IMG/VR virus record: IMGVR_UViG_3300045988_140943
DNA from: a virus
Length of the DNA: 47,256 bases
Direction: 5' to 3' (one strand)
Shown: positions 27,376 to 39,843 of the stretch, one piece after another
Layout: each line of letters starts with the position of its first letter
Position numbering within the stretch: the first letter of the stretch is position 1
Made by a program: the position numbers and the translations under genes
Notes under the pieces: model-generated
Seen by the model: the letters and a program-made list of their open reading frames with translations, nothing else
Database searches by the model: none
What the model was told of the DNA's origin: nothing

Positions 27376-28320
27376 ATGTTGGATAACAAACAAGGGGAAA
27401 ATCTTGCTAAAGTATTATTATATTATGGTTTGATTGAAAGTCCTGATGTAAGTGACCAAAAAATAGTTTGTCCATTCCACGAAGATGTAAATCCTTCAAT
27501 GGCAATTAATTTAGTTGATGGCACATATTATTGTTTTGGCTGCAATAAATCTGGAGGCCCTGAAAGTTTTGTATTTCGGATGGAATCAAAATATAATGGA
27601 CTGAATGATTTGCAATCCTTGATAAAATATCATAAGATTCTCAAGTCAAATAAATCACTTCATTTGAAATTCTCTAGGAGTAGAAAGTATAAGAAAAGTG
27701 ATAAAATTTATTTGGTAATGGCGCATGATTATTATTATTGCCTATCCAAAACAGATTGGTATAGTAATGACCCGGAAGTTTTAAGGGTACTATCATACAT
27801 GAAACAAAGAGGATTTACTAGAAAGATCTTAAGTAAAGTTGGTGCAAAGATAACCTATAATAGTTCTTATCCAATCATTTTTCCAATTATGGACAATGAA
27901 GAATTCAAAGGTTATGTATGTAGAACAACAGATAAATCCATAGAACAAAAAAGGAAATATCTTTATAATGAAGGTTTTTCAAGAGCAACTACTTTGGTGG
28001 GAAAATATTCAGAGGAATGTATACCGATTATAGTTGAGGGCTATATGGATATGCTTAAACTTATCCAGTTTGGTGAGGAAAATGTAATTGCTTTATTTGG
28101 TTGGAAAGCTACTGAAAATCAAATAAATAAAATGAAAAAAGCAGGGATTAAAAAGATAATCTGTGCTACTGATAATGATGATTGTGGAGTCAAAGGTTAT
28201 CATTACCTTAAGAATTTTTTTGATGTAAAAAGATTTTGCTTTCCCAAAGGGGTTAAAGATGTGGGGGAGATGAATGTACAAACATACAAAAGATGCAAAA
28301 TAAAAACGATGAGCAAATAG
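27376..28320 (+). CDS. DNA primase (DnaG-type zinc finger plus TOPRIM)
   Basis: CPFHEDVNPSMAINLVDGTYYCFGCNKSG; IVEGYMDMLKL...ATDNDDCGVKG. Confidence 0.85.
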   Translation: MLDNKQGENLAKVLLYYGLIESPDVSDQKIVCPFHEDVNPSMAINLVDGTYYCFGCNKSGGPESFVFRMESKYNGLNDLQSLIKYHKILKSNKSLHLKFSRSRKYKKSDKIYLVMAHDYYYCLSKTDWYSNDPEVLRVLSYMKQRGFTRKILSKVGAKITYNSSYPIIFPIMDNEEFKGYVCRTTDKSIEQKRKYLYNEGFSRATTLVGKYSEECIPIIVEGYMDMLKLIQFGEENVIALFGWKATENQINKMKKAGIKKIICATDNDDCGVKGYHYLKNFFDVKRFCFPKGVKDVGEMNVQTYKRCKIKTMSK

Positions 28321-28517
28321 ATCGGAGCTTATAAAATGCTGGAAATAGTCTTGCTTGATTTGACACTGGACTAAAATAATTTACACGGTTCGGGCTTGGG
28401 ATAATTCATTTCTTGGGAGCTATATAGCTTAATTGATATGGCCGATCTGCTGAAGGTTTAATGCTATTAATTGTCAAGTACATTTGGTAAAATTTATATT
28501 TAAGGAGAATAATACAA

Positions 28518-29315
28518 ATGGGAATTTTGAGTAAAATTAAAAGTGACGTTAAGAAATCTGGTCAAAATAAAGGAAAGTTTATGTACTTTCGTGAAGGTGT
28601 GAAAACCCGTGTGAGATTCTTGACGGATATGGAAGATGGTATGGAGGTAGTCTTCCACGATAGTTACGCAGACGGCATAAATGTTCCTTGTAGAGAAACA
28701 TTTGGTAAGTCTTGTGATTATTGTGAACAGGAAGGACTCCGTACAAGAAGCCAGTATATATGGTCTGTATGGGACTACGAAGCAAAAGAAGTAAAGCTGA
28801 TTATGGCACCAGTAAATAACTGCTCCCCAGTTCCGGCATTGGTTGCTCTTTATGATACATACGGCACCCTTACTGATAGGGACTATGTAATCACAGTTAC
28901 CGGCAAGCAGCAGAATAAGTCTTTTTCTGTAATTCCAATGGATAAGGCAAAGTTCAGAAATGAGAAGGCAAAACCATTCTCACAGAAGAAGGTTTTGGAA
29001 CTTCTTGATAAAGCTTTCCCTGATGAGAATGAAGACGACGAAGATGAAGAATATGAAAAGCCAACAAAGAGAAAGCCGACAAAAACTTCTCAGAAATCTA
29101 AAGAGGTTGACGATGATTGGGAAGACGAGGACAATGAAGATCTGGACTATTCGGAAATGTCTCCGAAGGAACTTTACAAACTTTGTAAAGAAAGAGATAT
29201 TGATGTAGAGCCAAAGAAGAATTCCAAGTACTATATCAATCAGCTTGAGGAATATGACCAGGCTCAGGATGATTGGGCCGATGAAGACGACGATGATTGG
29301 GAAGACGATGAGTAA
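28518..29315 (+). CDS. putative ssDNA-binding protein (gp32-like Zn/OB layout) with HeH motif and an acidic C-terminal tail
   Basis: PCRETFGKSCDYCEQ Cys cluster, central beta-rich core, YSEMSPKELYKLCKERDIDV, tail DDWADEDDDDWEDDE. Confidence 0.5.
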   Translation: MGILSKIKSDVKKSGQNKGKFMYFREGVKTRVRFLTDMEDGMEVVFHDSYADGINVPCRETFGKSCDYCEQEGLRTRSQYIWSVWDYEAKEVKLIMAPVNNCSPVPALVALYDTYGTLTDRDYVITVTGKQQNKSFSVIPMDKAKFRNEKAKPFSQKKVLELLDKAFPDENEDDEDEEYEKPTKRKPTKTSQKSKEVDDDWEDEDNEDLDYSEMSPKELYKLCKERDIDVEPKKNSKYYINQLEEYDQAQDDWADEDDDDWEDDE

Positions 29316-29799
29316 AAACATTATTATCTTCGGTTGTGACAATTCCGGCAAAACCACATTAGCCTCTAATTTATTTTCCCGCATGATGGGTGCAGTGTTA
29401 TTCCCTCCCTTGGGCCCTGCAACCTTGGATCAGCAAAAGGCTTATCTGAAAAGAATACGGGAAAGTAAATCTAGGTGTATATGTGATAGATTCCCACCTA
29501 TAGAAGAAATGGTTTGCGGAAATGTTTTGAGAGGTACTTCTAATTTTAAAGAGGATGATCTCAAAGAATTTTTGGATTGCCAATTTATTTGGTGTAACCC
29601 AAGTTTTACCTCGATTTTAAATTGGGGCGAACGGGAGCAAATGAAGGGTGTAAAAGAAAATATTGTCCCTTTATATTTTGGGTATCTCAAAATTTTTATG
29701 AAGTTAAAAGAACTCGGTGCAGACGTATTTGAATACAACTGGGAAAAAGAAGAAGAATTTAAAAACTTGTGTTGGCATATAAATGAAAGAGGTAATTAA
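29308..29799 (+). CDS. P-loop kinase-like protein (nucleotide or nucleic-acid kinase candidate)
   Basis: IIIFGCDNSGKTTLASNL Walker A right after ATG 29308 (ATGAGTAA overlap with the upstream gene). Confidence 0.55.
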   Translation: MSKNIIIFGCDNSGKTTLASNLFSRMMGAVLFPPLGPATLDQQKAYLKRIRESKSRCICDRFPPIEEMVCGNVLRGTSNFKEDDLKEFLDCQFIWCNPSFTSILNWGEREQMKGVKENIVPLYFGYLKIFMKLKELGADVFEYNWEKEEEFKNLCWHINERGN

Positions 29800-29801
29800 G
29801 A

Positions 29802-30473
29802 ATGAATATTACTCACGCAATTCACGAAGAAGTTACTGGAGATAAGTTAGAGGCGATATTTAAAAGACAATCCGAATTGATGTTTAAGTATCATGATATT
29901 GAAAAGAGATCGGGATTGCTTCAGACTGAAGATTGTCCTGTTAATCTGGATGACAAAAGAGGACAGGCAAGAATTAAGGATTTTGCTTGGAGAGTAACTG
30001 AGGAAGTGGGAGAAGCTTTGGATGCTTATCGTAGTAGAGATGATGAACATTTCCACGAAGAACTCATTGATGGGCTTCATTTCCTTACGGAGCTTTCAAT
30101 TTTGGCAGGAATTACCCCAAAGGAAATTGTGCAAAATCTAGTTGATTCTATACCTACCCTTCCAACCGATGCTGCCAAAGATAAGGATTGCTTGGATTCT
30201 ATTTATGAATTGGCTCAGATCCAGATTTACTTGGATGGAGCAATTACTGCTTTTGTAGAATCAATTGGAATGATGTGCAATTGCCTCAAAAATAAACCTT
30301 GGAAACAGAGCAATATGGTTACAGATAAGGAAGCATTTTATAAACGTCTTTCCAACCTTTGGCTCAGTTATATTTCCGTTTTGGCAACAGCTAAGCTTTC
30401 ACCGGAAGAAGTGGTTGATGTTTACCTCAAAAAATCCCAGGTCAATAAATTCCGCCAGAGGAGTAATTATTGA
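29802..30473 (+). CDS. all-alpha NTP pyrophosphohydrolase (dimeric dUTPase/dCTPase-like)
   Basis: VTEEVGEALDA, HEELIDGLHFLTEL, NKPWKQ, C-terminal KKSQVNKFRQRSNY. Confidence 0.55.
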   Translation: MNITHAIHEEVTGDKLEAIFKRQSELMFKYHDIEKRSGLLQTEDCPVNLDDKRGQARIKDFAWRVTEEVGEALDAYRSRDDEHFHEELIDGLHFLTELSILAGITPKEIVQNLVDSIPTLPTDAAKDKDCLDSIYELAQIQIYLDGAITAFVESIGMMCNCLKNKPWKQSNMVTDKEAFYKRLSNLWLSYISVLATAKLSPEEVVDVYLKKSQVNKFRQRSNY

Positions 30474-31228
30474 TGTTGGTAAGAAAATATCAAAATCTAA
30501 CGGAAATGTTTATGGAACTTAATCGGGAGATTATTTCAAAGCCATCCCAAATGCTGGATTATGTTCATGGAATTCTTGGTTACATAGATAACGTAGTATT
30601 AGCTTCCAAAAGTTGTGACTTTGATTTTGATTTATCCAAGGTGGGTTACAAGGTTGGTAAATGGAGTCATCTACTTAGAACCTATGTAGATTATGAAGGA
30701 TTGATTGAGTTTCATAAAAAACTAGAGGATTCAACTGCTCTTTCCTTGACCTATTATTTTAAACAAAAGAAAGTGAATAATGGATCTTGTTTAATTGCCA
30801 TTGTTGTGTCTAGAAATGACCGGAAAAAGAAATGGACAAAGGTTAATGTTTTATATCGTACGACAGAAGTCCAAAGAAGATTTGCTGCTGATTTAACATT
30901 GGTGCAATCTTTTATCAAAGAACTCCCTTCCTGTTGTGAAATCAACAGAATAATATTTTACTTCCCGCAAATGTATATAAATGCTAAGGTTTTAAATGGG
31001 TATTTTAATATATTTGGAATTCCAATGGAATCCTTGGATAAATCTAGTGAATGGGTTAAAACCATGATTAGAGATTATGAATTAAATTATGTTCCGGGAA
31101 GTAGAATAACTACTTACCAATCAATTGCTAGAATGCAGAGGTTAAGGTTGGGATTGACTAAGTACGATCCATTGCCATCCAAGTCATTATCAATAAGAAA
31201 ATATTTTGAATCCAAAAAGGAGAAATAA
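30473..31228 (+). CDS. divergent thymidylate-synthase-fold protein (function unclear)
   Basis: NGSCLIAIVVSR...VNVLYRTTEVQRRFAADLTLVQSFI aligns by eye with the PCH..QRSxD..N region of the ThyA family; TGATG overlap. Confidence 0.4.
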   Translation: MLVRKYQNLTEMFMELNREIISKPSQMLDYVHGILGYIDNVVLASKSCDFDFDLSKVGYKVGKWSHLLRTYVDYEGLIEFHKKLEDSTALSLTYYFKQKKVNNGSCLIAIVVSRNDRKKKWTKVNVLYRTTEVQRRFAADLTLVQSFIKELPSCCEINRIIFYFPQMYINAKVLNGYFNIFGIPMESLDKSSEWVKTMIRDYELNYVPGSRITTYQSIARMQRLRLGLTKYDPLPSKSLSIRKYFESKKEK

Positions 31229-31230
31229 AA

Positions 31231-31917
31231 ATGAGGATATATGTAGATTGGCCTGAGTGCTATGAAGAAGTAAAAAGAGATCTTGCTGAAATGGGTATTT
31301 TGGTTAAACCAAAAACAATGCAGGATAAGGTTATTGAAAACAATGAAGCCTATGAAACAATGGAGCTTCAGAATTATTCTTACTCTCTGTTAAATGCAAA
31401 ATCCAATGCAATTACAAGGGTTGTTCAGCCTTGGGCAGATGCGGAATTTGAAGAGAGAATAAATCCTGCTGGTAATATAAACCCTGGAGAAGCTTGGAAG
31501 TTAAGGGAAGATGTATGGACTGAGTATTTGCATGATGGCAAAATGGCTTATACATACAACGAAAGAATTATGTTTAATAACCAGCTTAATAAAATCATCA
31601 AACGGCTTAAGGAAGATCGGGACTCTAGACAGCTTTGGTTGTCAATTTGGAATCCAGCTATTGACCCTGATAAACTTGGTGGTATTTCAAGAGTTCCTTG
31701 TTCTTTAGGATATAATTTCCAGTTTAGAGACGGGAAACTTAATATGCACTATGTAATGCGGAGTTGTGATTTTAACACGCATTTTATAAATGATGTATAT
31801 TTGGCTATCAAGCTTTTGGAATATGTGGCAAAGGAATGTGGTATGGAAGTGGGCTCTTTCACCCACACAATGTTCTCCCTTCACGTTTACCGCAAGGATA
31901 TTTCAAACGTATTCTAA
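31231..31917 (+). CDS. ThyA-family enzyme (thymidylate synthase or dNMP hydroxymethylase-like)
   Basis: DRDSRQLWLSIWNP..D....RVPCSLGYNFQFRDGKLNMHYVMRSCDFNTHFINDVY...SLHVY. Confidence 0.7.
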   Translation: MRIYVDWPECYEEVKRDLAEMGILVKPKTMQDKVIENNEAYETMELQNYSYSLLNAKSNAITRVVQPWADAEFEERINPAGNINPGEAWKLREDVWTEYLHDGKMAYTYNERIMFNNQLNKIIKRLKEDRDSRQLWLSIWNPAIDPDKLGGISRVPCSLGYNFQFRDGKLNMHYVMRSCDFNTHFINDVYLAIKLLEYVAKECGMEVGSFTHTMFSLHVYRKDISNVF

Positions 31918-31918
31918 A

Positions 31919-31979
31919 TGTAAATAATCTGTTAACCTATAAATTTTCTATTGACTTTCTGGGAATGGTGTGATATAAT
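31919..31979 (+). promoter_or_regulatory. promoter cassette P7 (two upstream elements)
   Basis: TGTAAATA at 31919, TGTTAACC at 31930, TTGACT 31951..31956, 17-nt spacer, TGaTATAAT ending at 31979. Confidence 0.8.
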
Positions 31980-32017
31980 ATAAATATAATAAATAAAAAC
32001 TTACGGAGGTAAATATT

Positions 32018-32665
32018 ATGAACAACAAGGAAGTTATTGAAAAGGTTAAAAAGATTCTTGCTCTTGCAGAAAATAACCCAAATGAAAATGAAGCTTTAGC
32101 TGCTGCTCTTAAGGCTCAAAAGATGATGGCTAAATTCCATATTCAGGAAGAAGATCTTAGAGATGAGGTTACTGAATCTACAATTGATTCCATCGTTGCT
32201 AAACACAATGGAAAGACTGCAAAATGGAGATTGTCTTTAGCTTTGGTTATAGCAGCTAATTTTAGATGTAGGGTTTATATACAGAATGGTAAGGATGTTT
32301 GCTTTATGGGGTACGAGGAAGATGCTGTGATTTGTAAAGAGGTATTCCTTTCTATGTATTCTATTGGTGAAAAATTATCAAACAAACTTAAGAGAGAAAC
32401 TAGAAAATCTAAAGGTACAGCTACAGGTGTTAAGAATACATTCTGTTGTGGTTTTGTTGATGGAATAAAATCGGAATTGGAAAAGCAATGTACAGCTTTG
32501 GTTTTGATTGTTCCTAAGGAAGTCAATGAAGCCTTTGAAGCAAAGACGAGTAATGTAAAAAGAAAGAAAGTTTCTTTGAAAATCTCTAATGACTCAGAGG
32601 TTTATAATAAAGGGTTTGTAAGTGGTAAGAATTCTATTCAGGCAAGGGCAATTGAAAACAAGTAA
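32018..32665 (+). CDS. DUF2786-like phage protein
   Basis: VIEKVKKILALAENNPNENEALAAALKAQKMMAKF N-terminal signature. Confidence 0.65.
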   Translation: MNNKEVIEKVKKILALAENNPNENEALAAALKAQKMMAKFHIQEEDLRDEVTESTIDSIVAKHNGKTAKWRLSLALVIAANFRCRVYIQNGKDVCFMGYEEDAVICKEVFLSMYSIGEKLSNKLKRETRKSKGTATGVKNTFCCGFVDGIKSELEKQCTALVLIVPKEVNEAFEAKTSNVKRKKVSLKISNDSEVYNKGFVSGKNSIQARAIENK

Positions 32666-32718: not shown

Positions 32719-35466
32719 ATGGGATTTGATTTGCATAGACACGATGAGGCAAGTAGCTTTGATGGATTTGGTAAACCAACAGAGTTAGCAAGCTTGGCTA
32801 AAGAGTATGGGTATACAATGTTAGCTGTAACAAATCATGGAAATACTACTAGCTTAGTTCAGCATTATTTGGCTTGTAAAGATGTGGGGATAAAACCAGG
32901 TCTTGGGGTAGAGGGATATTTTCTTCCGAAGTATAAACCCCAAGACAGAGGGTTCCATTTAATACTGTTGGCTAAAAATGCTCAAGGTTATGCCAATATG
33001 AACCGGATCCAGTACGAAGGTGAGAAACAGAAGTATTACAATCCTATTTGGGATTTTAAAATTCTGGAAAAATATCACGAAGGGCTGATTTGTTCTACTG
33101 CTTGTGTAGCGGGATATTTAGGACAATGTATAATTAAAGGTAAGATAGAAGTAGCTGCCAAATATCTTAAAAGAATGAAGTCAATATTTGGGGAAGATTT
33201 TTATGTTGAGATTCAGCCATATTCAATTTCTGAAGAAGGCCTTCAAGAAAAGATAAATGTTAAGTCCATTGAGTTGGCGAAGAAATTGGGTATCAAGTGT
33301 ATATTAACTTCAGATTCTCACCGAGGAAGAAAAGAAGATTTTGATACTTACCTGAAGATGCACGAGATCAAAAAACCTGGTAATGCTGAATGGTTAGAGC
33401 ATGTTACAAAAACTTATAAAGAACGTTATATGCCTAAGCCTGGGGAAATGATGAAAAGATTTTATAAAATGCACAAGAGTGACTTTGGGGAGGTTGAAGC
33501 CAAAAGATTGGCTAAGGAAATGGAAAGAAACCTTGATGAAATTGAAGCTAAGGTTGAGGATGATATATTCAAGGATTTTAAACAGACCTTGCCAAAATTC
33601 TCTGAAGAGGATTCCACAAAATTGCTTGTGGAAAAGTTAAGGCAAAGCATGAAACAAAGAGGTAAAACAACAAAAGCCTATATTAACAGAGTCAAGGAAG
33701 AACTGGAGGTTATAAAGTCTTTGGGATTCCAAGATTACTTTTTGATTGTAGCAGATTATGTTAACTGGGCAAAGAAACAAGGAATTACTGTTGGACCAGG
33801 AAGAGGTTCTGCTTGCAATTGTGAAGTAGCTTATTTTCTGGGTATTACGGAGGTAGACAGTTTGTATTTTGGACTAGACTTCCGAAGATTCCTCCGTAAA
33901 GATAAAAAGAAAATGCCTGATATTGATATTGACTTTGAAAGGTGCAGAAGACAAGAAGCCATTGAATATCTCATTAACAAATATCCAGGTCATACAGCAA
34001 GGATTGCTTCCTATGGTTTGTATAAGGTTGATAATCTTATCAATGACTTGGCCAAAGTTTGTGGGTTGCCAACTGATAGCAAGGTGGATCCGGAAATTGT
34101 TAAGTATAACAAGAAAATGATTGCAGACCTTAAGTCTTTGATTAAATCTTATATTGATGAGGACGGAATGTTAGATTCTAAAGGTTTGTTGCAAAATAAA
34201 ATTTCCAGATGTTTTAATTCCGATTATGATAACATAGTAAAACACTTTACCAAGCTCTATATGAAGTTGAGGTTTATTGGAACCCACGCAGCAGGTGTTG
34301 CTGTTACTGGCGGAAACATTTTGGATTTTACTTCTTTGAGAATTGATAAGAATGGTGATATTTTTACTAGTTTTGATTTGAACGATATGGAAAATATCCA
34401 CGTTATCAAGTTTGATATGTTAGGCCTGAGGACAATGGAAAGTACAGGGGAGTTGAGGGAGTTAACTGGTTGTTCTGGAATCACAGAGGAAATCGTAAAC
34501 GATCCAAAACTCTATGAGAATTTCAGAACAGGGCAAACTGATGGTGTATTCCAGTTTGACAAGGAAGCAGTAAGAGGAATTCTGAAGGAAATCAATTGTG
34601 ATTGTTTTGGAGATGTTATTGCAGCAAATGCGATGAACAGACCTGGCCCTTTGAAGATGAAACAGCCTCAGCTTTATGCGGATAACAAATTGGAAGGCGG
34701 AACTGGATCAGCTGATGATATTTATAAATACACCAAAGATTCATACGGTACAATCATTTACCAGGAACAAATCCAGCAAATTTGCGTAGGGGTTGGAGGT
34801 ATGACTTGGGGAGATGCGGATAAGGTAATGAAGATGATTGGTGGACAATCCCAGTCAGCTGACGCTAAAGCCCAATTTGAAAGAGACAAAAAAGAACTTC
34901 ATGATAAGTTCGTACAAGGAGCTGTTAAAAATGGCTTCCCAAAATCTAGAGCAGAAGAAATCTTTGATATGGTCCTTGTATATTCCTTCAATAAAGGTCA
35001 TGCTTGTGGCTATTCTCTAATATCTTTGGAGGAGATGTATTATAAAACCTATTTCCCTTTGGAGTATTGGTACACTCGTATTAAATATGCTCCGACTGAT
35101 TCTGATTATGATAGGTTTTGTGGTAAAGCTGTGGCAAATGATGTGGTTATATTTTTGCCTCACGCAAATTATTCGGCTTCTTTTACTTCGATTAGAGTTG
35201 TTGATGGTGATAGAGTTATCCAACAAAGCCTAAATCGAATTAAAGGTGTTGGTAATAAGGCTGCTGATTTTATAGTTGAGGAAAGAAAAAGAAATGGAAT
35301 TTTTACCTCATATGATAATTTTTATGATAGATGCAAAAGCCGAGTTGTTACCACGAGAGTAATATCTTTATTGGATGAAGCTGGGGCTTTAAATTTTAAT
35401 AAGAAAAAGTATTTACAGAGAGTTGTGAAATATAACTCTAGTTTGTATGCAAAAGCTTTGAGGTGA
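32719..35466 (+). CDS. DNA polymerase III alpha-like replicase (PHP domain plus polymerase core)
   Basis: FDLHRHDEASSFDG..AVTNHGN (PHP), GPGRGSACNCEVAYFLGITEVD, PDIDIDFE, AANAMNRPGP. Confidence 0.9.
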   Translation: MGFDLHRHDEASSFDGFGKPTELASLAKEYGYTMLAVTNHGNTTSLVQHYLACKDVGIKPGLGVEGYFLPKYKPQDRGFHLILLAKNAQGYANMNRIQYEGEKQKYYNPIWDFKILEKYHEGLICSTACVAGYLGQCIIKGKIEVAAKYLKRMKSIFGEDFYVEIQPYSISEEGLQEKINVKSIELAKKLGIKCILTSDSHRGRKEDFDTYLKMHEIKKPGNAEWLEHVTKTYKERYMPKPGEMMKRFYKMHKSDFGEVEAKRLAKEMERNLDEIEAKVEDDIFKDFKQTLPKFSEEDSTKLLVEKLRQSMKQRGKTTKAYINRVKEELEVIKSLGFQDYFLIVADYVNWAKKQGITVGPGRGSACNCEVAYFLGITEVDSLYFGLDFRRFLRKDKKKMPDIDIDFERCRRQEAIEYLINKYPGHTARIASYGLYKVDNLINDLAKVCGLPTDSKVDPEIVKYNKKMIADLKSLIKSYIDEDGMLDSKGLLQNKISRCFNSDYDNIVKHFTKLYMKLRFIGTHAAGVAVTGGNILDFTSLRIDKNGDIFTSFDLNDMENIHVIKFDMLGLRTMESTGELRELTGCSGITEEIVNDPKLYENFRTGQTDGVFQFDKEAVRGILKEINCDCFGDVIAANAMNRPGPLKMKQPQLYADNKLEGGTGSADDIYKYTKDSYGTIIYQEQIQQICVGVGGMTWGDADKVMKMIGGQSQSADAKAQFERDKKELHDKFVQGAVKNGFPKSRAEEIFDMVLVYSFNKGHACGYSLISLEEMYYKTYFPLEYWYTRIKYAPTDSDYDRFCGKAVANDVVIFLPHANYSASFTSIRVVDGDRVIQQSLNRIKGVGNKAADFIVEERKRNGIFTSYDNFYDRCKSRVVTTRVISLLDEAGALNFNKKKYLQRVVKYNSSLYAKALR

Positions 35467-35663: not shown

Positions 35664-36197
35664 ATGAAGGTAACAATTTTGAGATACCCAACTAAAGAGG
35701 ATTGGGAACGCTGTAAAATGATGGCGATGAATACGATTGGTAAGAACTGGGCGGGTGAAGTTACTGATATCTGGAAGGATAAAATTTTAAGAGCAAGACA
35801 CTCCCCGATAAGAACTTTGATGTTTACAATTAAAATGGAAGTTCCTTATTATGTGTCCGTGCATTTTGTTCGCCACAAATATGGGGTAGAACATTATGTA
35901 TCATCCCAGAGAAATGATAGGCAAGATAAATATGATCGGCGGGAAGCTAAACAGTCAATTCCAGTGATCCATATTATGGATGTTAATGCAGAGGAATTAA
36001 TGACCATTGCTAATCGAAGGTTGTGTAATCAAGCTGATGTTAAAACAAGGGAAGTTATGAACCTGATTGTGAAAGAGGTTTTGAAAACTAACCCCGAGTT
36101 TACTCCACACCTAGTTCCCCAATGTCTTAAGTTGGGTTTGGGAATTTGTCCAGAGTTCAAACCTTGCGGGAGAATGAGCAAAAAGGATGATAAATAA
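35664..36197 (+). CDS. ThyX-like (flavin-dependent thymidylate synthase family) protein, short form
   Basis: HSPIRTLMFTIKMEVPYYVSVHFVRHKYGVEHYVSSQRN resembles the ThyX RHR..S....S.R region; 177 aa is short for the family. Confidence 0.5.
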   Translation: MKVTILRYPTKEDWERCKMMAMNTIGKNWAGEVTDIWKDKILRARHSPIRTLMFTIKMEVPYYVSVHFVRHKYGVEHYVSSQRNDRQDKYDRREAKQSIPVIHIMDVNAEELMTIANRRLCNQADVKTREVMNLIVKEVLKTNPEFTPHLVPQCLKLGLGICPEFKPCGRMSKKDDK

Positions 36198-36896: not shown

Positions 36897-37307
36897 ATGA
36901 GACTTTGGCATAAGGATTTAATCGAATATCTTCCGAGACAGCAACTGTTAGCTCAATGGAGGGAGTGCTGTTGTATAGCACGAAACATTAAAGTAAATGG
37001 TACCCCAAACCATTTGCTAGTAAACAAAATTCTTAAATACCCCATAACTCATTTTGTAACCTATTCAATGCTGGTTGCCAATGAAATGGAACGCAGGGGT
37101 TATAAGGTAGATCTTAATAAATTCACAAAATATCTTTGTGGACCATCCTATTGGACTTTTGTGCCATATGATGATTTGTTTGCCAATTGGCACGATAAAC
37201 GCTATCTTACTCAATGCTATTATAACCTGGAAGAAAAATACGATTGTGGTGGTATTCCCAAAGATGAGTGGGAAAAGGTTGTCCAAGGTTATTACAAATA
37301 TAAATGA
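36897..37307 (+). CDS. pyrimidine-dimer DNA glycosylase-like protein (DenV/TIGR02328-type)
   Basis: MRLWHKDLIEYLPRQQLLAQWRECCCIARN...NEMERRGYKV. Confidence 0.65.
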   Translation: MRLWHKDLIEYLPRQQLLAQWRECCCIARNIKVNGTPNHLLVNKILKYPITHFVTYSMLVANEMERRGYKVDLNKFTKYLCGPSYWTFVPYDDLFANWHDKRYLTQCYYNLEEKYDCGGIPKDEWEKVVQGYYKYK

Positions 37308-37318
37308 GGTTTGATAAA

Positions 37319-38260
37319 ATGGCAAAAACAAATAAAGCTGAGATCATTAAGCTTTGTAATGAGATAAACAAAAAAGAAGGCGAAGGTTCTATTTATTCAA
37401 TTGGATCTAAACACGCCAACCTTAATATCAATCGTTGGTCAACGGGAATTGAAGACCTAGACAATATCATTGGTGGTGGTATGCCAGAGGGAAGGGTTGT
37501 TGAAATCTTTGGCCCTGAAAGCTCAGGTAAAACAACTTTGATGTATCATCTCTGTGGCCTTCACGATCTTTGTCTAGATATTCCGATTGAAGGCACATTT
37601 GACGCTGAAAGAGCAAAGGTGTTTGGAAATCGTCCAAAACAGATGCTAATATATAGAGCAAAATACGGGGAGGACGCTTTCAACAAAACAATTAAATTTG
37701 CTAAAGCTGGAATCCCCTTGATTGGCATTGACTCCGTTCCAAGTATGATTCCAAAAGATGACGCTGAGAAAGTTTTTAAATCTGTTGAGAAGGATTCCAT
37801 TGAGGAACAAAGAATTGGCGGTGTTGCTCGATTGATGAATAAATATCTTCCAGTTGCTGAAGAAATAATTGAGGTAACAGGAACTACCCTTATATTTGTC
37901 AATCAGGTAAGGGATAAAATGAACGCTTTGATGTTTGGGGAAAAAACTGATACTCCTGGTGGTAGAAAACTAAAACACGCTTGTTCCTTGCGTATTCAGG
38001 TAGCTCGAAGAGCTTGGATTGAAATTCCAAATAAAGATCCAAGAAATTCAGCTAATTCCAAAAAGATCGGAATGATAATGAAGTGTAAGGTGGTCAAATC
38101 AAAGGTTTGCAACCCGATGGGTGAATGTGAAATCCCACTGATCTTTGAAAGAGGTTTTGTTTCTTTTGATGATGTTCCAGCAATCAGAAAAGAAATGATG
38201 AAAGCCGAAGCTGCTAAGTATGGCAAAAGAATTCCAAAGGAGTTTATGGATGATGAATGA
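37319..38260 (+). CDS. recA: RecA-family recombinase
   Basis: GGGMPEGRVVEIFGPESSGKTTL, LIFVNQVRDK, FGEKTDTPGGRKLKHACSLRIQV; ATG 37319 after GAGGT. Confidence 0.85.
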   Translation: MAKTNKAEIIKLCNEINKKEGEGSIYSIGSKHANLNINRWSTGIEDLDNIIGGGMPEGRVVEIFGPESSGKTTLMYHLCGLHDLCLDIPIEGTFDAERAKVFGNRPKQMLIYRAKYGEDAFNKTIKFAKAGIPLIGIDSVPSMIPKDDAEKVFKSVEKDSIEEQRIGGVARLMNKYLPVAEEIIEVTGTTLIFVNQVRDKMNALMFGEKTDTPGGRKLKHACSLRIQVARRAWIEIPNKDPRNSANSKKIGMIMKCKVVKSKVCNPMGECEIPLIFERGFVSFDDVPAIRKEMMKAEAAKYGKRIPKEFMDDE

Positions 38261-38564
38261 TAAGTTTGAACTTTCTAGAGAATATTCTGAAGAAGCGGAT
38301 AAGATGAGAAAAAATCGGGTGGAGGTTTCTTTCCATAAATATGGGCCAGCAAGAATAAACTTTGGAGAAAGATTGGTAGATGCAATTAAATCTTCTGATT
38401 TATGTGTTGAAAAATATAATAAAACTGGTAATACAGAATACTTGCTAGATGCAATGAACTACTTGATGTTTGAATTTATGTTCCCCCAAAAAGAAGGAGC
38501 ATATTTTAAAGCAACTGATTCGAAGGAATCTGCCGGCCATGTAGGTAAAGCTTATAAAGAATAA
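38250..38564 (+). CDS. hypothetical protein (possible all-alpha NTP-pyrophosphatase-like)
   Basis: AAAGGAG SD before ATG 38250; SFHKYG...YNKTGNTEYLLDAMNYLMFEF. Confidence 0.6.
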   Translation: MMNDKFELSREYSEEADKMRKNRVEVSFHKYGPARINFGERLVDAIKSSDLCVEKYNKTGNTEYLLDAMNYLMFEFMFPQKEGAYFKATDSKESAGHVGKAYKE

Positions 38565-38818: not shown

Positions 38819-39292
38819 ATGGAAAGAATCAGTAAAAGAAAATATTATTTGAATATTGCAAGAGCAGTATCAAAAAGAAGCAGTTGTTTAAAACGCAGAT
38901 ATGGCTGTATCATTGTTAAGAATGATGAGATAATTGCAACAGGCTACAATGGTTCCCCAAGAGGTGTAGAAAATTGTTGTGATAAAGGAAAATGTCCTAG
39001 GTTCTCTAAACCACACAATTCTGGAGATTATTCAGATTGTCCTTCTGTCCATGCTGAACAAAATGCAATGTTATCTGCTAGTCGTAAAGATATGATTGGC
39101 GCTACAATGTATTTGGCAGGCGATGAGATAAATTCTTCAGACCCATCTAATTCTTACCCCTGTTGGATTCAGTTGGTTAAATGCGAACCTTGCCCAATAT
39201 GTGCAAGAATGATTCTCAATGCTGGAATCTCTGAGGTAGTTACATTATATGATACATATACAAGAGATGATATAGCCAAGAGATTAATCTAA
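38819..39292 (+). CDS. dCMP (deoxycytidylate) deaminase
   Basis: HAEQNAM and PCPICARMILNAGI zinc-binding motifs; RSSCLKRRYGCIIV. Confidence 0.9.
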   Translation: MERISKRKYYLNIARAVSKRSSCLKRRYGCIIVKNDEIIATGYNGSPRGVENCCDKGKCPRFSKPHNSGDYSDCPSVHAEQNAMLSASRKDMIGATMYLAGDEINSSDPSNSYPCWIQLVKCEPCPICARMILNAGISEVVTLYDTYTRDDIAKRLI

Positions 39293-39303: not shown

Positions 39304-39843
39304 ATGAAGATAGCAAAGAAAACAAGATTTGTTCCTTATAATGGAATACATAAAGACGACGAATATGAAACCCCTAAACAGGCTGTTGAAATAATAGCCC
39401 AATATATCCCCAAAGATGCTATTATATGGTGCCCATTTGATTTGCCTAAAAGTAATTTTGTAAAAGTTTTTGAAGAACGTGGTAATACTGTATACCATAG
39501 TCATATATGTCAAGGCAAAGATTTTCTTAAAGGCAAGATAAATAAAAAGATAGATTATATCATAAGTAATCCTCCTTATAGTTGTAAAGATTTAATCTAT
39601 GAACGTTTGATTGATTTGGATATACCTTTTGCTATGTTGGTAAATATGCAAGGTATATTTGATTCAAAAAAAAGAGTTGAATTATTTAAGGATAAAAATA
39701 TTCAGCTTCTATATATTTATCCACGAATATGCTACATAAAAGATGGAATACAAACAAAAAGCAATATATTCCAATCTGGATATATTTGTTATAAAGTGCT
39801 TCCTAAGAATTTAATCATATATAATAGTGAGAAAGGTAAATAA
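39304..39843 (+). CDS. putative N6-adenine methyltransferase (NPPY)
   Basis: EYETPKQAV...IWCPFD...IDYIISNPPYS. Confidence 0.5.
   Translation: MKIAKKTRFVPYNGIHKDDEYETPKQAVEIIAQYIPKDAIIWCPFDLPKSNFVKVFEERGNTVYHSHICQGKDFLKGKINKKIDYIISNPPYSCKDLIYERLIDLDIPFAMLVNMQGIFDSKKRVELFKDKNIQLLYIYPRICYIKDGIQTKSNIFQSGYICYKVLPKNLIIYNSEKGK

What the first reader, a model, noticed from the sequence alone, without database searches (positions are those of the whole stretch)
29308..31917. Pyrimidine-metabolism gene set suggesting a non-canonical pyrimidine in the phage DNA
A translationally coupled four-gene block lies directly after the SSB-like gene. It encodes a P-loop kinase-like protein, an all-alpha NTP pyrophosphatase (dimeric dUTPase/dCTPase-like), a very divergent thymidylate-synthase-fold protein, and a clearer ThyA-family enzyme (PC catalytic Cys, RSCD..N, HVY).

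Elsewhere the genome also encodes a short ThyX-like protein (35664..36197), a dCMP deaminase (38819..39292) and another possible NTP-pyrophosphatase-like protein (38250..38564).

Three thymidylate-synthase-type proteins plus a deaminase and a nucleotide-pool-sanitising pyrophosphatase are more than dTMP supply requires. The combination resembles the enzyme logic of phages that replace T or C with 5-hydroxymethyl or hypermodified pyrimidines. In those phages a TS homologue acts as a dUMP/dCMP hydroxymethylase, an NTPase excludes the canonical dNTP, and a kinase acts on the modified nucleotide or on hmU in DNA. The divergent TS-fold protein could carry a different chemistry.

This is inference from gene content only.
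Basis: inference. Interest (0 to 1): 0.7.

Follow-up and report, generated by a model that had tools for sequence, protein, structure and literature searches.

The report
Phage cytosine-modification cassette with extra synthase
This common gut-type phage carries a tightly linked gene set that most likely replaces ordinary cytosine (not thymine) in its DNA with a chemically modified form, and the set includes a previously undescribed enzyme family whose job is unknown.

Summary
The four-gene block is real, translationally coupled and conserved in about 75 viral loci, from Clostridium perfringens phages to Gordonia phages.

- **A (29308-29799)** is a thymidylate-kinase-like P-loop dNMP kinase.
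- **B (29802-30473)** is an all-alpha NTP pyrophosphatase in the same Pfam family as T4 gp56 dCTPase.
- **C (30473-31228)** is a confidently predicted, very divergent thymidylate-synthase (TS)-fold protein. Its family has no Pfam model.
- **D (31231-31917)** is a ThyA homologue.

The residue at the Asn177 position of D is Asp in 72/72 clade members, which is the dCMP-specificity switch. D also lacks the ThyA C-terminal tail. So the logic is T4-like for cytosine: dCTPase, then dCMP C5-modifying enzyme, then kinase. It is not for thymine.

D fits none of the three characterised product signatures:
- 5hmC: Asp/Glu at position -3 from the catalytic Cys. D has an invariant Arg there.
- 5hoC: D169N. 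D keeps Asp.
- 5mC: a full C-terminal tail, with a phage DHFR alongside in the one 5mC phage examined (PaMx74). D has neither.

Family C keeps the catalytic Cys, Arg166 and Asp at position 177, but lacks the Tyr94 loop. It is often duplicated.

Hydroxymethyl-dC is my best guess for the product. The chemistry is unproven. This is a new variant of a known kind.

The parts
28518..29315 (+). SSB-like gene that heads the probable transcription unit. This is context, not part of the pathway.
   Evidence: Weak PHROG SSB match at 1.6e-6, with an acidic C-terminal tail. A promoter-like site lies at 28471-28500. An SSB-like gene precedes A in about a third of the related loci.
29308..29799 (+). A: thymidylate-kinase-like P-loop dNMP kinase. 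Its inferred role is phosphorylation of the modified dCMP.
   Evidence: It has the Walker A motif GCDNSGKT and an invariant DR(F) motif. PHROG 761 matches at 9e-12. A profile search of PDB gives SPbeta YorR at 1.9e-9 and thymidylate kinases at 1.3e-6, both full length. It is present in 48 related loci beside B and D.
29802..30473 (+). B: all-alpha (MazG/dimeric-dUTPase type) NTP pyrophosphohydrolase. Its inferred role is a dCTPase that removes dCTP and supplies dCMP.
   Evidence: Pfam dUTPase_2 scores 43.3 bits against a cut-off of 22.9, and PHROG 12184 matches at 1.8e-41. T4 gp56 dCTPase falls in the same Pfam family and aligns pairwise at E 0.001. B sits beside a separate canonical trimeric dUTPase in 32 related loci.
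30473..31228 (+). C: a member of an uncharacterised, divergent thymidylate-synthase-fold family. It retains the catalytic Cys, the Arg166 equivalent, Glu at position 169 and Asp at position 177. Its function is unknown.
   Evidence: The AF2 model has pLDDT 92. Foldseek against PDB gives AfhB, T4 dCH and MilA at probability 1.0 and TM 0.4-0.5. hhalign against a TS alignment gives 92% probability and E 6.6e-7, with Cys on C146, Arg on R166, Glu on D169 and Asp on N177. Cys, Arg and Asp are invariant in 97/97 and 73/73 family members. None of 73 members matches a Pfam model.
31231..31917 (+). D: ThyA-family pyrimidine C5-modifying enzyme with a dCMP-type active site. The probable product is 5-hydroxymethyl-dCMP or a related product.
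   Evidence: Pfam PF00303 matches at 1.8e-19, covering profile positions 79-217 only. Alignments show C146 kept, D169 kept, N177->D, H147->S, L143->R, and the protein ending 8 residues after HVY. These features hold in 72/72 clade members. It scores below every NCBIfam TS equivalog cut-off.
31951..31979 (+). Promoter-like site that closes the cassette and starts the next unit.
   Evidence: TTGACT, 17 nt, TATAAT with an upstream TG, matching 11 of 12 positions. It is the best site in 28300-32100.
35664..36197 (+). Short ThyX-fold protein. It is a possible flavin-dependent dTMP synthase that would give the phage a separate dTMP route.
   Evidence: Pfam Thy1 scores 34.1 bits against a cut-off of 24.8. 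The AF2 model has pLDDT 83, and Foldseek gives T. maritima ThyX at TM 0.68. The motif is RHKYGVEHYVSSQR, against the ThyX consensus RHRxxSxxxxSxR as I recall it. NCBIfam thyX scores 17.6 against a cut-off of 87.9. The family has 2660 homologues of about 180 aa.
38819..39292 (+). dCMP deaminase family protein. It either supplies dUMP or deaminates the modified dC nucleotide.
   Evidence: Pfam dCMP_cyt_deam_1 matches at 8.9e-20, and PHROG 174 at 7e-43. The HAE and PCxxC motifs are visible in the sequence. A deaminase directly follows D in loci L063-L075.

Best explanation
The block is a pre-replicative cytosine-modification cassette that works on the same logic as phage T4.

1. B hydrolyses dCTP to dCMP. 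This keeps ordinary C out of phage DNA and feeds the next step.
2. D is a thymidylate-synthase homologue whose active site is built for cytosine. It adds a one-carbon group at C5 of dCMP. The most likely product is 5-hydroxymethyl-dCMP, made non-reductively.
3. A phosphorylates the modified dCMP. Host kinases and the phage DnaE-type polymerase then place it in DNA.
4. C is a second, very divergent TS-fold enzyme that also has a cytosine-type active site. It most likely carries out a further or alternative step on a cytosine nucleotide.
5. The dCMP deaminase, plus the ThyX-like protein or host ThyA, cover dTMP supply separately.

What is shown: the folds, the active-site residues and the conserved gene linkage. 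What is inferred: the substrates of A and B, the product of D, the role of C, and whether replacement of C in virion DNA is complete.
For: **D is built for dCMP.**
- Asp replaces Asn177, the experimentally established dUMP-to-dCMP switch cited in PMC13326640 and PMC8670742.
- This is seen in HMMER and MAFFT alignments and in 72/72 clade members.
- L. casei TS chains 1njc/1njd and 1tsx rank just above wild-type L. casei TS (1lca). 1njc is the N229D mutant bound to dCMP.
- His147 is replaced by Ser or Thr. Position 147 is the other residue that MetaGPA associates with cytosine-modified contigs.

**D is not a dTMP synthase.**
- It scores far below all NCBIfam TS cut-offs, for example 80.8 against 174.55.
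- Related cassettes hold a canonical ThyA (6.6e-89) or ThyX (1.3e-48) as well as C and D.

**Non-reductive chemistry is favoured.**
- D ends 8-19 residues after HxY. It therefore has no C-terminal tail, like T4 dCH. The tail seals the TS site for hydride transfer (PMC6400193).
- PaMx74 gp52, from a 5mC phage, keeps the full tail and has a phage DHFR nearby.
- No DHFR appeared among the window ORFs scanned.

**B shares a family with the T4 dCTPase.**
- B is in the same Pfam family as T4 gp56.
- B co-occurs with a separate trimeric dUTPase in 32 loci.

**A is a TMK-like nucleotide kinase**.

**The linkage is conserved.**
- The order A-B-C-D, or B-C-C-D, recurs in C. perfringens phage P21, Gordonia phage Cozz, gut phage MT121964 and about 75 IMG/VR loci.

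**C carries catalytic residues.**
- The catalytic-position Cys, Arg and Asp are invariant, and hhalign places them on the TS catalytic positions.
Against: No nucleoside data exist for this phage or for any relative I could find.

D does not meet the published T4 dCH signature.
- The residue three before the catalytic Cys is an invariant Arg, not Asp or Glu. In T4, the D145N mutant is inactive (PMC6400193).
- The Ser/Thr-x-Tyr motif reads Tyr-Thr-Tyr in D.
- The hydroxymethyl product is therefore a guess.

In a bioRxiv screen, 5 of 7 tested deaminase-associated N177D homologues made 5mdCMP.

The specificity of B for dCTP, and of A for the modified dCMP, rests on analogy only.

The genome still under-represents CATG (0.32), GATC (0.56) and ATGCAT (0 observed, 11.3 expected). 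That would be unexpected if a bulky cytosine modification protected all such sites.
Confidence: 0.65

Rival explanations
1. Xp12/PaMx74-type pathway. D is a dCMP methyltransferase that makes 5-methyl-dCMP, so 5mC replaces C. The deaminase turns part of the 5-methyl-dC nucleotide pool into dT nucleotides.
For: D has N177D. A pyrophosphohydrolase lies next to the TS homologue and a dCMP-deaminase-family gene is in the genome, as in PaMx74. In the bioRxiv screen, 5 of 7 deaminase-associated N177D TS homologues made 5mdCMP. In loci L063-L075 the deaminase directly follows D.
Against: D lacks the C-terminal tail that TS needs for hydride transfer, whereas PaMx74 gp52 keeps it (PMC6400193). Position 143 is a charged Arg, not a bulky hydrophobic residue. 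No DHFR was found, although PaMx74 has one. The extra C enzymes remain unexplained.
Confidence: 0.17
2. Thymine-side pathway. D makes 5hm-dCMP (or 5m-dCMP), and the deaminase converts it to 5hm-dUMP (or dTMP). The non-canonical base in DNA, if any, is then a thymine analogue.
For: A dCMP-deaminase-family gene is in the window (38819-39292), and one lies immediately after D in L063-L075. Some phage deaminases convert 5hmdC nucleotides to 5hmdU in vivo.
Against: No 5-HMUDK, aGPT-Pplase or other thymidine-hypermodification family was found. A dCTPase-like gene is the most constant partner of D, present in 76 loci, which fits exclusion of dC rather than of dT. The P21-type relatives (53 loci) encode a polymerase fused to a UDG domain.
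Confidence: 0.08
3. Ordinary nucleotide supply. D is a divergent dTMP synthase, B a dUTPase and A a thymidylate kinase. C is a decayed paralogue, and the DNA is canonical.
For: Public annotations call D 'thymidylate synthase' and the Cozz homologue of B 'dUTPase'. The PHROG names are thymidylate kinase and thymidylate synthase.
Against: Asp at position 177 in 72/72 members excludes dUMP preference by the established rule. D is below all TS equivalog cut-offs. Canonical ThyA, ThyX and dUTPase co-occur with the cassette in relatives. C keeps invariant catalytic-position residues across sequences only 17-40% identical, which argues against decay.
Confidence: 0.05
4. C and D form one hetero-oligomeric enzyme. 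C supplies in trans the parts D lacks (a lid and a second phosphate-binding Arg), so there is one reaction rather than two.
For: TS-fold enzymes are obligate dimers with shared active sites (textbook knowledge). D has Gln or Lys at the Arg127 position and no tail. C and D are adjacent, translationally coupled, and co-occur in 74 of 83 loci.
Against: Seven loci have D-A-B with no C, so D can stand alone. C keeps its own complete Cys/Arg/Asp set. C is often present in two or three diverged copies.
Confidence: 0.15

Closest known systems
Phage T4 hydroxymethylcytosine pathway (gp56 dCTPase/dUTPase, gp42 dCMP hydroxymethylase, gp1 dNMP kinase, cd dCMP deaminase)
   Same: The three-enzyme logic is the same. 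B and gp56 share Pfam dUTPase_2. D and gp42 share Asp at the Asn177 position, within an 'ND' motif, and both have a short C-terminus. A dCMP deaminase is also present.
   Different: D has an invariant Arg where gp42 has the essential Asp145, and Tyr where gp42 has Ser94 (PMC6400193). A is TMK/YorR-like and showed no detectable hit to the gp1 structure. No glucosyltransferase is present. An extra TS-fold enzyme, C, is present. The genes form one coupled operon, whereas in T4 genes 56 and 42 lie about 9 kb apart.
5-hydroxy-dCMP synthases (RB69 gp48, DLP3 gp80, HY126 AfhB; PDB 9iqu/9iqc)
   Same: These are the best solved-structure matches by sequence for D (9e-17) and by fold for C. They share N177D and a short C-terminus.
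   Different: The diagnostic D169N substitution is absent. D keeps Asp in 72/72 members and C has Glu. D keeps the Trp80 equivalent; folate stacking by Trp80 is my recollection. D has Arg rather than Glu at position 143.
dCMP methyltransferases of 5mC phages (Xp12, PaMx74 gp52), with the adjacent pyrophosphohydrolase and deaminase
   Same: They share N177D. An NTP pyrophosphohydrolase lies directly upstream of the TS homologue, and a deaminase-family gene is in the genome.
   Different: PaMx74 gp52 keeps the full ThyA C-terminal region, and the phage encodes a DHFR. D has neither. The PaMx74 pyrophosphohydrolase is of the PRA-PH type, not dUTPase_2.
MilA CMP hydroxymethylase (mildiomycin biosynthesis)
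   Same: It is a TS-fold enzyme specific for cytosine nucleotides, and it appears among the fold hits for C and the sequence hits for D.
   Different: MilA has Asp at the positions equivalent to both 143 and 177 (PMC13326640). It acts on CMP in antibiotic biosynthesis, not in a phage replication module.

Membership tests
ThyA thymidylate synthase (dUMP to dTMP), tested for D | Catalytic Cys146 within a Pro-Cys motif | tested here: met
   The VPC motif is present, and Cys is conserved in 72/72 clade members.
ThyA thymidylate synthase (dUMP to dTMP), tested for D | Asn177, which selects dUMP | tested here: not met
   Asp is found in 72/72 members.
ThyA thymidylate synthase (dUMP to dTMP), tested for D | C-terminal tail that seals the folate site for hydride transfer | tested here: not met
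   D ends 8 residues after HVY, where E. coli ThyA has about 55 more residues.
ThyA thymidylate synthase (dUMP to dTMP), tested for D | Score above curated equivalog cut-offs | tested here: not met
   The best NCBIfam score is 80.8 against a cut-off of 174.55; the others are 29-54 against 108-427. The Pfam domain cut-off is passed: 70.4 bits against 24.3.
T4-type dCMP hydroxymethylase, tested for D | Asp at the Asn177 position (T4 Asp179) | tested here: met
   The IND motif of D aligns to RND of T4 gp42.
T4-type dCMP hydroxymethylase, tested for D | Asp or Glu three residues before the catalytic Cys (T4 Asp145), which activates the substrate water | tested here: not met
   Arg is found in 72/72 members. 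The signature comes from PMC6400193.
T4-type dCMP hydroxymethylase, tested for D | Ser or Thr two residues before the catalytic Tyr (T4 Ser94-x-Tyr96) | tested here: not met
   D reads Tyr107-Thr108-Tyr109, with Tyr at that position in 71/72 members.
T4-type dCMP hydroxymethylase, tested for D | Formation of 5hm-dCMP from dCMP and CH2-THF | not testable with these tools
   This needs an enzyme assay or nucleoside LC-MS.
5-hydroxy-dCMP synthase (AfhB / RB69 gp48), tested for D and C | Asn in place of Asp169 (D169N) | tested here: not met
   D has Asp in 72/72 members. C has Glu in 84 and Asp in 7 of 97. The rule comes from PMC13326640.
dCMP methyltransferase (Xp12/PaMx74 type), tested for D | Asp at position 177, a full ThyA-like C-terminus and a DHFR partner. 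This working definition comes from PaMx74 and the TS mechanism. | tested here: not met
   Asp177 is met. The tail is absent. No DHFR was found among the scanned ORFs.
All-alpha NTP pyrophosphohydrolase, T4 gp56 dCTPase type, tested for B | Membership of Pfam dUTPase_2 with an EExxE...EELxD-type helix motif | tested here: met
   B scores 43.3 bits against a cut-off of 22.9. T4 gp56 scores 25.4 bits in the same family. The pairwise E-value against gp56 is 0.001 over the motif helix.
All-alpha NTP pyrophosphohydrolase, T4 gp56 dCTPase type, tested for B | Hydrolysis of dCTP | not testable with these tools
   This is inferred only from linkage to a dCMP-type enzyme, and from a separate trimeric dUTPase in 32 related loci.
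Thymidylate-kinase-like dNMP kinase, tested for A | Walker A motif, DR(Y/F) motif and full-length similarity to TMK or dNK structures | tested here: met
   A has GCDNSGKT and an invariant D60-R61. PDB profile hits are YorR at 1.9e-9, and TMKs at 1.3e-6 (A. aeolicus, over the N-terminal half) and 4.5e-5 (vaccinia, near full length). The Pfam Thymidylate_kin model itself is not matched.
Thymidylate synthase superfamily, tested for C | TS fold | tested here: met
   The AF2 model has pLDDT 92 and pTM 0.90. The top 15 PDB hits are all TS, dCH, MilA or AfhB at probability 1.0, though TM is only 0.37-0.51.
Thymidylate synthase superfamily, tested for C | Catalytic Cys146, Arg166, an acidic residue at 169 and the base-reading residue at 177, all in register | tested here: met
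   hhalign gives 92% probability and E 6.6e-7, aligning Cys, Arg, Glu and Asp to those positions. Cys, Arg and Asp are invariant in 97/97 and 73/73 members.
Thymidylate synthase superfamily, tested for C | Match to Pfam PF00303, and presence of the Tyr94 loop | tested here: not met
   None of 73 members matches any TS model. The Tyr94 segment of ThyA has no counterpart in the hhalign alignment.
ThyX flavin-dependent thymidylate synthase, tested for 35664-36197 | ThyX fold and a Pfam Thy1 match | tested here: met
   Pfam scores 34.1 bits against a cut-off of 24.8. Foldseek gives T. maritima ThyX at TM 0.68 and probability 1.0.
ThyX flavin-dependent thymidylate synthase, tested for 35664-36197 | RHRxxSxxxxSxR motif (my recollection) and an equivalog-level score | tested here: inconclusive
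   The motif reads RHKYGVEHYVSSQR. NCBIfam thyX scores 17.6 against a cut-off of 87.9. The protein is 177 aa, against 208-221 residues for the matched T. maritima ThyX chains.
Thymidine hypermodification pathway (dUMP hydroxymethylase, 5-HMUDK, aGPT-Pplase) | A dUMP-specific (Asn177) hydroxymethylase plus a DNA 5hmU kinase or pyrophosphorylase | tested here: not met
   D has Asp177. No such Pfam or PHROG family appeared among the ORFs scanned. The structural half of the genome (1-18 kb) was not scanned.

The most novel reading that the evidence does not exclude
Family C is a new class of thymidylate-synthase-fold enzymes that act on an already C5-substituted cytosine nucleotide.

- Proposed mechanism: the invariant Cys attacks C6 of 5hm-dCMP, water leaves to re-form the exocyclic methylene, and another nucleophile is captured.
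- This fits the loss of the Tyr94 proton-abstraction loop, and the presence of one to three diverged copies per phage.
- If so, this abundant gut phage lineage, the C. perfringens biocontrol phages (CPD4, P21, CPAS-15) and Gordonia Emalynviruses would carry an undescribed hypermodified cytosine made at the nucleotide level.
- D, with its invariant Arg at position -3, would be a fourth product class of dCMP-specific TS homologues.
Probability: 0.25. Interest if true: 0.85.

Novelty: new variant of a known kind. Interest (0 to 1): 0.6.

Why it matters
Pre-replicative cytosine replacement is known from T-even phages (5hmC), Xp12 (5mC) and RB69/DLP3 (5hoC).

This cassette would extend it to a widespread lineage of roughly 47-58 kb phages of Firmicutes and Actinobacteria.
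- The exact D protein is on 161 contigs.
- The lineage includes C. perfringens phages that are being developed for poultry biocontrol.

Modified DNA affects several practical matters:
- restriction and CRISPR evasion;
- host range;
- sequencing and cloning behaviour;
- safety assessment.

The cassette also exposes two uncharacterised enzyme groups that are cheap to test by the plasmid LC-MS assay already used in the field.
- One is a dCMP-type TS clade that fits none of the three published product signatures.
- The other is a TS-fold family without any database model, linked to the first in about 90% of loci.

Either could yield a new base, or a new C5 chemistry useful for epigenetic sequencing tools.

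Tried and rejected
- **Megablast.** A search of the block against 50,697 phage records gave no match. Relatives were found only at the protein level.
- **C against PDB by sequence.** Only one chance-level hit, E 0.025.
- **hhalign, narrow profile.** The narrow C profile (A2) against a TS alignment aligned only the N-terminal helix, probability 18%. It worked only after the profile was broadened with distant members.
- **jackhmmer link to TS.** The link from C to a Mosigvirus TS homologue covers only residues 7-53, so I did not use it for active-site mapping.
- **ThyX-like protein against PDB by sequence.** No hit, so a fold search was needed.
- **Literature.**
  - Searches for PDB codes 9IQU/9IQC/9IR2 returned only chance matches, and no AfhB/HY126 paper is held.
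  - Nothing reports DNA modification in the C. perfringens phages.
  - Nothing reports it in the Gordonia phages.
  - Nothing relevant cites the MT121964 record.
- **Cellular genomes.** The scan found only two MAG contigs of about 55 kb that are themselves phage-sized, so it gave no prophage or host anchor. The diverse alignment A7 was too variable for that tool.
- **'CPAS-15 glycosyltransferase' label.** I rejected this public label for the C homologue, because the fold is TS.
- **C as a pseudoenzyme.** I rejected this because Cys, Arg and Asp are invariant at 17-40% identity.
- **Restriction-site avoidance.** It was computed but is too ambiguous to weigh heavily.

Full report
**1. The observation**

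The window is a phage-sized, one-strand genome with GC 0.34. Near-identical contigs of 46.5-48.4 kb occur in many metagenomes.

Four ORFs lie at 29308-31917 on the + strand. I label them:
- A, 29308-29799
- B, 29802-30473
- C, 30473-31228
- D, 31231-31917

The junctions are tight:
- The ATG of A overlaps the stop of the SSB-like gene by 8 nt.
- A and B are 2 nt apart.
- B and C overlap as TGATG.
- C and D are 2 nt apart.
- A purine-rich ribosome-binding-site-like motif lies inside the end of the preceding gene at the A/B, B/C and C/D junctions.

The two best promoter-like sites in the region bracket the SSB-A-B-C-D unit. One is at 28471-28500 and the other at 31951-31979, the latter matching 11/12 positions with an extended -10.

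**2. What each protein is**

*A* has a Walker A motif at its N-terminus.
- It matches PHROG 761 'thymidylate kinase' at 9e-12.
- In a 17-member alignment it has an invariant D-R(F) motif.
- A profile search of solved structures gives full-length matches to SPbeta YorR (1.9e-9). Thymidylate kinases also match: 2pbr at 1.3e-6 over the N-terminal half, and vaccinia 2v54 at 4.5e-5 over nearly the full length.
- It is a nucleotide-kinase-type protein, not a DNA kinase.

*B* passes the Pfam dUTPase_2 cut-off at 43.3 bits and matches a PHROG pyrophosphohydrolase family at 1.8e-41.
- The experimentally characterised T4 gp56 dCTPase/dUTPase falls in the same Pfam family.
- It aligns to B over the EELxD helix.

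*C* has no Pfam, NCBIfam or PDB sequence match.
- With 29 homologues it folds at pLDDT 92.
- Every leading Foldseek hit is a thymidylate-synthase (TS) superfamily member: HY126 dCMP hydroxylase AfhB, T4 dCMP hydroxymethylase, MilA and ThyA. Probability is 1.0 and TM 0.4-0.5.

*D* matches Pfam Thymidylat_synt at 1.8e-19, but only over profile positions 79-217.

**3. Elsewhere in the window**

- 35664-36197 passes the Pfam Thy1 cut-off. Modelled with 26 homologues, it has the ThyX fold (TM 0.68 to T. maritima ThyX). It is short (177 aa), its motif is altered to RHKYGVEHYVSSQR, and it scores far below the NCBIfam thyX cut-off.
- 38819-39292 is a dCMP-deaminase-family protein.
- 38220/38250-38564 matches nothing. 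The 'second pyrophosphatase' is unsupported.
- No DHFR, glycosyltransferase, 5-HMUDK or aGPT-Pplase family appeared among the ORFs scanned between 18 and 46 kb.

**4. The active site of D points to cytosine**

HMMER alignments to PDB chains, and MAFFT alignments with four reference proteins, agree. The references were:
- E. coli ThyA;
- T4 gp42;
- a Mosigvirus homologue;
- PaMx74 gp52.

In E. coli numbering:

| Position | State in D |
|---|---|
| Cys146 | kept |
| Arg166-Ser167 | kept |
| Asp169 | kept |
| Trp80, Tyr94 | kept |
| Asn177 | Asp (motif IND, as RND in T4 gp42) |
| His147 | Ser |
| Leu143 | Arg |
| C-terminus | ends 8 residues after HVY |

Across 72 non-identical clade members from 83 loci, including Gordonia phage Cozz, the pattern holds:
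- Asp177, Asp169, Cys146 and Arg143 are each 72/72.
- Position 147 is always Ser or Thr.
- The tail after HxY is 8-19 residues.

Asn177-to-Asp is the experimentally established switch from dUMP to dCMP. Positions 177 and 147 are the two residues most associated with cytosine-modified metavirome contigs. L. casei TS chains 1njc/1njd and 1tsx rank just above the wild type, and 1njc is the N229D mutant. The enzyme is built for dCMP.

**5. Which product?**

The published signatures are:
- an acidic residue three before the catalytic Cys, plus Ser/Thr-x-Tyr, for 5-hydroxymethyl;
- D169N for flavin-dependent 5-hydroxylation;
- a bulky hydrophobic residue at 143 with a sealing C-terminal tail for reductive methylation.

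D meets none of them. It has an invariant Arg at 143, it reads Tyr-Thr-Tyr, it keeps Asp169, and it has no tail.

I favour a non-reductive hydroxymethylase-like outcome, for four reasons:
- The tail is needed for hydride transfer.
- PaMx74 gp52, from a 5mC phage, retains the tail and sits near a phage DHFR.
- Trp80 is kept; I take this to suggest folate use (its stacking role is my recollection).
- Eleven related loci carry IspD-like and LicD-family genes directly after D, and those enzymes would need a hydroxyl acceptor.

This is inference. The clade may make something else.

**6. The cassette is conserved and is not dTMP supply**

Protein-level searches found the same order in several places:
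- C. perfringens phages P21, CPD4, Clo-PEP-1, CP3 and CPAS-15, where C is 43% and D 60% identical;
- gut phage records MT121964 and MT836181;
- Gordonia phage Cozz, as gp49 kinase, gp48 'dUTPase', gp46, gp45 'thymidylate synthase' and gp42 deaminase.

Two scans of IMG/VR gave 13 and 80 loci. In 83 non-window loci:
- B and D are each in 76, C in 74 (105 copies) and A in 48.
- Many loci have C-C-D, or a further C after D.
- Seven have D-A-B without C.

Relatives also carry, beside the cassette:
- a canonical trimeric dUTPase, in 32 loci;
- a full-length ThyX, in 9 loci (1.3e-48);
- or a full-length ThyA (L100, 6.6e-89).

So B is not the dUTPase there, and C and D are not the dTMP synthase there.

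**7. Family C**

- A profile search of 1.84 billion representatives found 309 clusters.
- None of 73 diverse members matches any Pfam model.
- In BFVD the closest folds are uncharacterised phage proteins, including one from Pseudomonas phage PMBT14. Annotated TS and dCH proteins follow.
- With the broadened profile, hhalign against the TS alignment gives 92% probability (E 6.6e-7, 176 columns).
- That alignment places Cys on C146, Arg on R166, Glu on D169, Asp on N177 and Trp on W80. The ThyA segment carrying Tyr94 has no counterpart.
- Cys, Arg and Asp are invariant in 97/97 locus-derived and 73/73 library-derived sequences that are only 17-40% identical to the window protein.

This is the pattern of an active enzyme that attacks C6 of a cytosine nucleotide, not of a decayed paralogue. 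What it makes is unknown.

**8. Mechanism proposed**

1. B removes dCTP and supplies dCMP.
2. D modifies C5 of dCMP.
3. A phosphorylates the product, and the phage DnaE-type polymerase (32719-35466) incorporates it.
4. C adds or alters a step on a cytosine nucleotide.
5. The deaminase, plus the ThyX-like protein or host ThyA, keep dTMP supplied.

The steps shown are the folds, residues and linkage. All substrates and products are inferred.

Rivals, each given as a standalone likelihood (they overlap with the main reading, so they are not meant to sum to 1):
- a 5mC (Xp12-like) pathway, 0.17;
- a route through deamination to a thymine analogue, 0.08;
- ordinary nucleotide supply, 0.05;
- a C-D heteromer performing a single reaction, 0.15 (compatible with the main reading).

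**9. Caveats**

- No nucleoside analysis exists for any relative that I could find.
- The genome still under-represents CATG (0.32), GATC (0.56) and ATGCAT (0 against 11.3 expected), which does not suggest blanket protection.
- The cellular-genome scan found only two phage-sized MAG contigs. The host is inferred only from relatives and composition.
- Work outside the searchable library may already have characterised this clade.

**10. Verdict**

- It is a new variant of a known kind of system.
- It contains two enzyme groups without a characterised member, and both are directly testable.

Noticed in passing
L087:7169-8786; also L021:9154-10774 and nine further loci: In 11 related loci an IspD-like cytidylyltransferase (Pfam 3.7e-25) and a LicD-family phosphotransferase (7.9e-39) sit directly after the D homologue. 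They could attach a CDP-activated phospho-alcohol to a hydroxymethylated base, or they could modify host teichoic acid. These genes are not present in this window.
   Followed up: partly
window 39304-39843: This is a small (179 aa) NPPY-motif DNA-methyltransferase-like gene (PHROG 799 at 2e-24). It varies among otherwise near-identical contigs: intact in L004, absent in L005, and split or truncated in L006 and L007.
   Followed up: partly
window 36897-37307: This is a T4 endonuclease V-type pyrimidine-dimer DNA glycosylase (Pfam Pyr_excise at 1.8e-19), lying between the ThyX-like gene and the RecA-like gene.
   Followed up: no
whole window: Several C-containing palindromes are under-represented against a Markov expectation. 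CATG is 47 observed against 145 expected (0.32), GATC is 0.56, and ATGCAT is 0 observed against 11.3 expected. CCGG, AGCT and CTAG are not under-represented.
   Followed up: partly
L043:4843-5994: In one related locus the ORF for the C homologue is 384 aa and contains an HNH_3 endonuclease domain at residues 89-130. This suggests a homing-endonuclease insertion or fusion at the start of C.
   Followed up: no
L001:13333-15771 (Clostridium phage P21) and 52 other loci: The relatives that carry the cassette mostly use a family A DNA polymerase with an N-terminal uracil-DNA-glycosylase domain (UDG at 1.9e-10, DNA_pol_A at 8.5e-80). This window instead has a 915-aa DnaE/PolIII-alpha type polymerase. 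The cassette therefore travels between different replication modules.
   Followed up: partly
MN417334.1 13259-13999 (Clostridium phage CPAS-15): The C homologue in this GenBank record is annotated 'colanic acid biosynthesis glycosyltransferase'. The predicted fold is thymidylate synthase, so that label is very likely wrong.
   Followed up: yes
window 38220-38564: This 104-114 aa ORF is conserved in the near-identical contigs but has no match in Pfam, PHROGs or NCBIfam.
   Followed up: yes
L077-L102 (for example L087:3192-4181): In one large group of related loci the B homologue ORF is about 290-340 aa, with the dUTPase_2 match only at its C-terminal end. No A-type kinase was found within 6 kb. 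The N-terminal part is unannotated, and it may be partly an artefact of my ORF extension.
   Followed up: no
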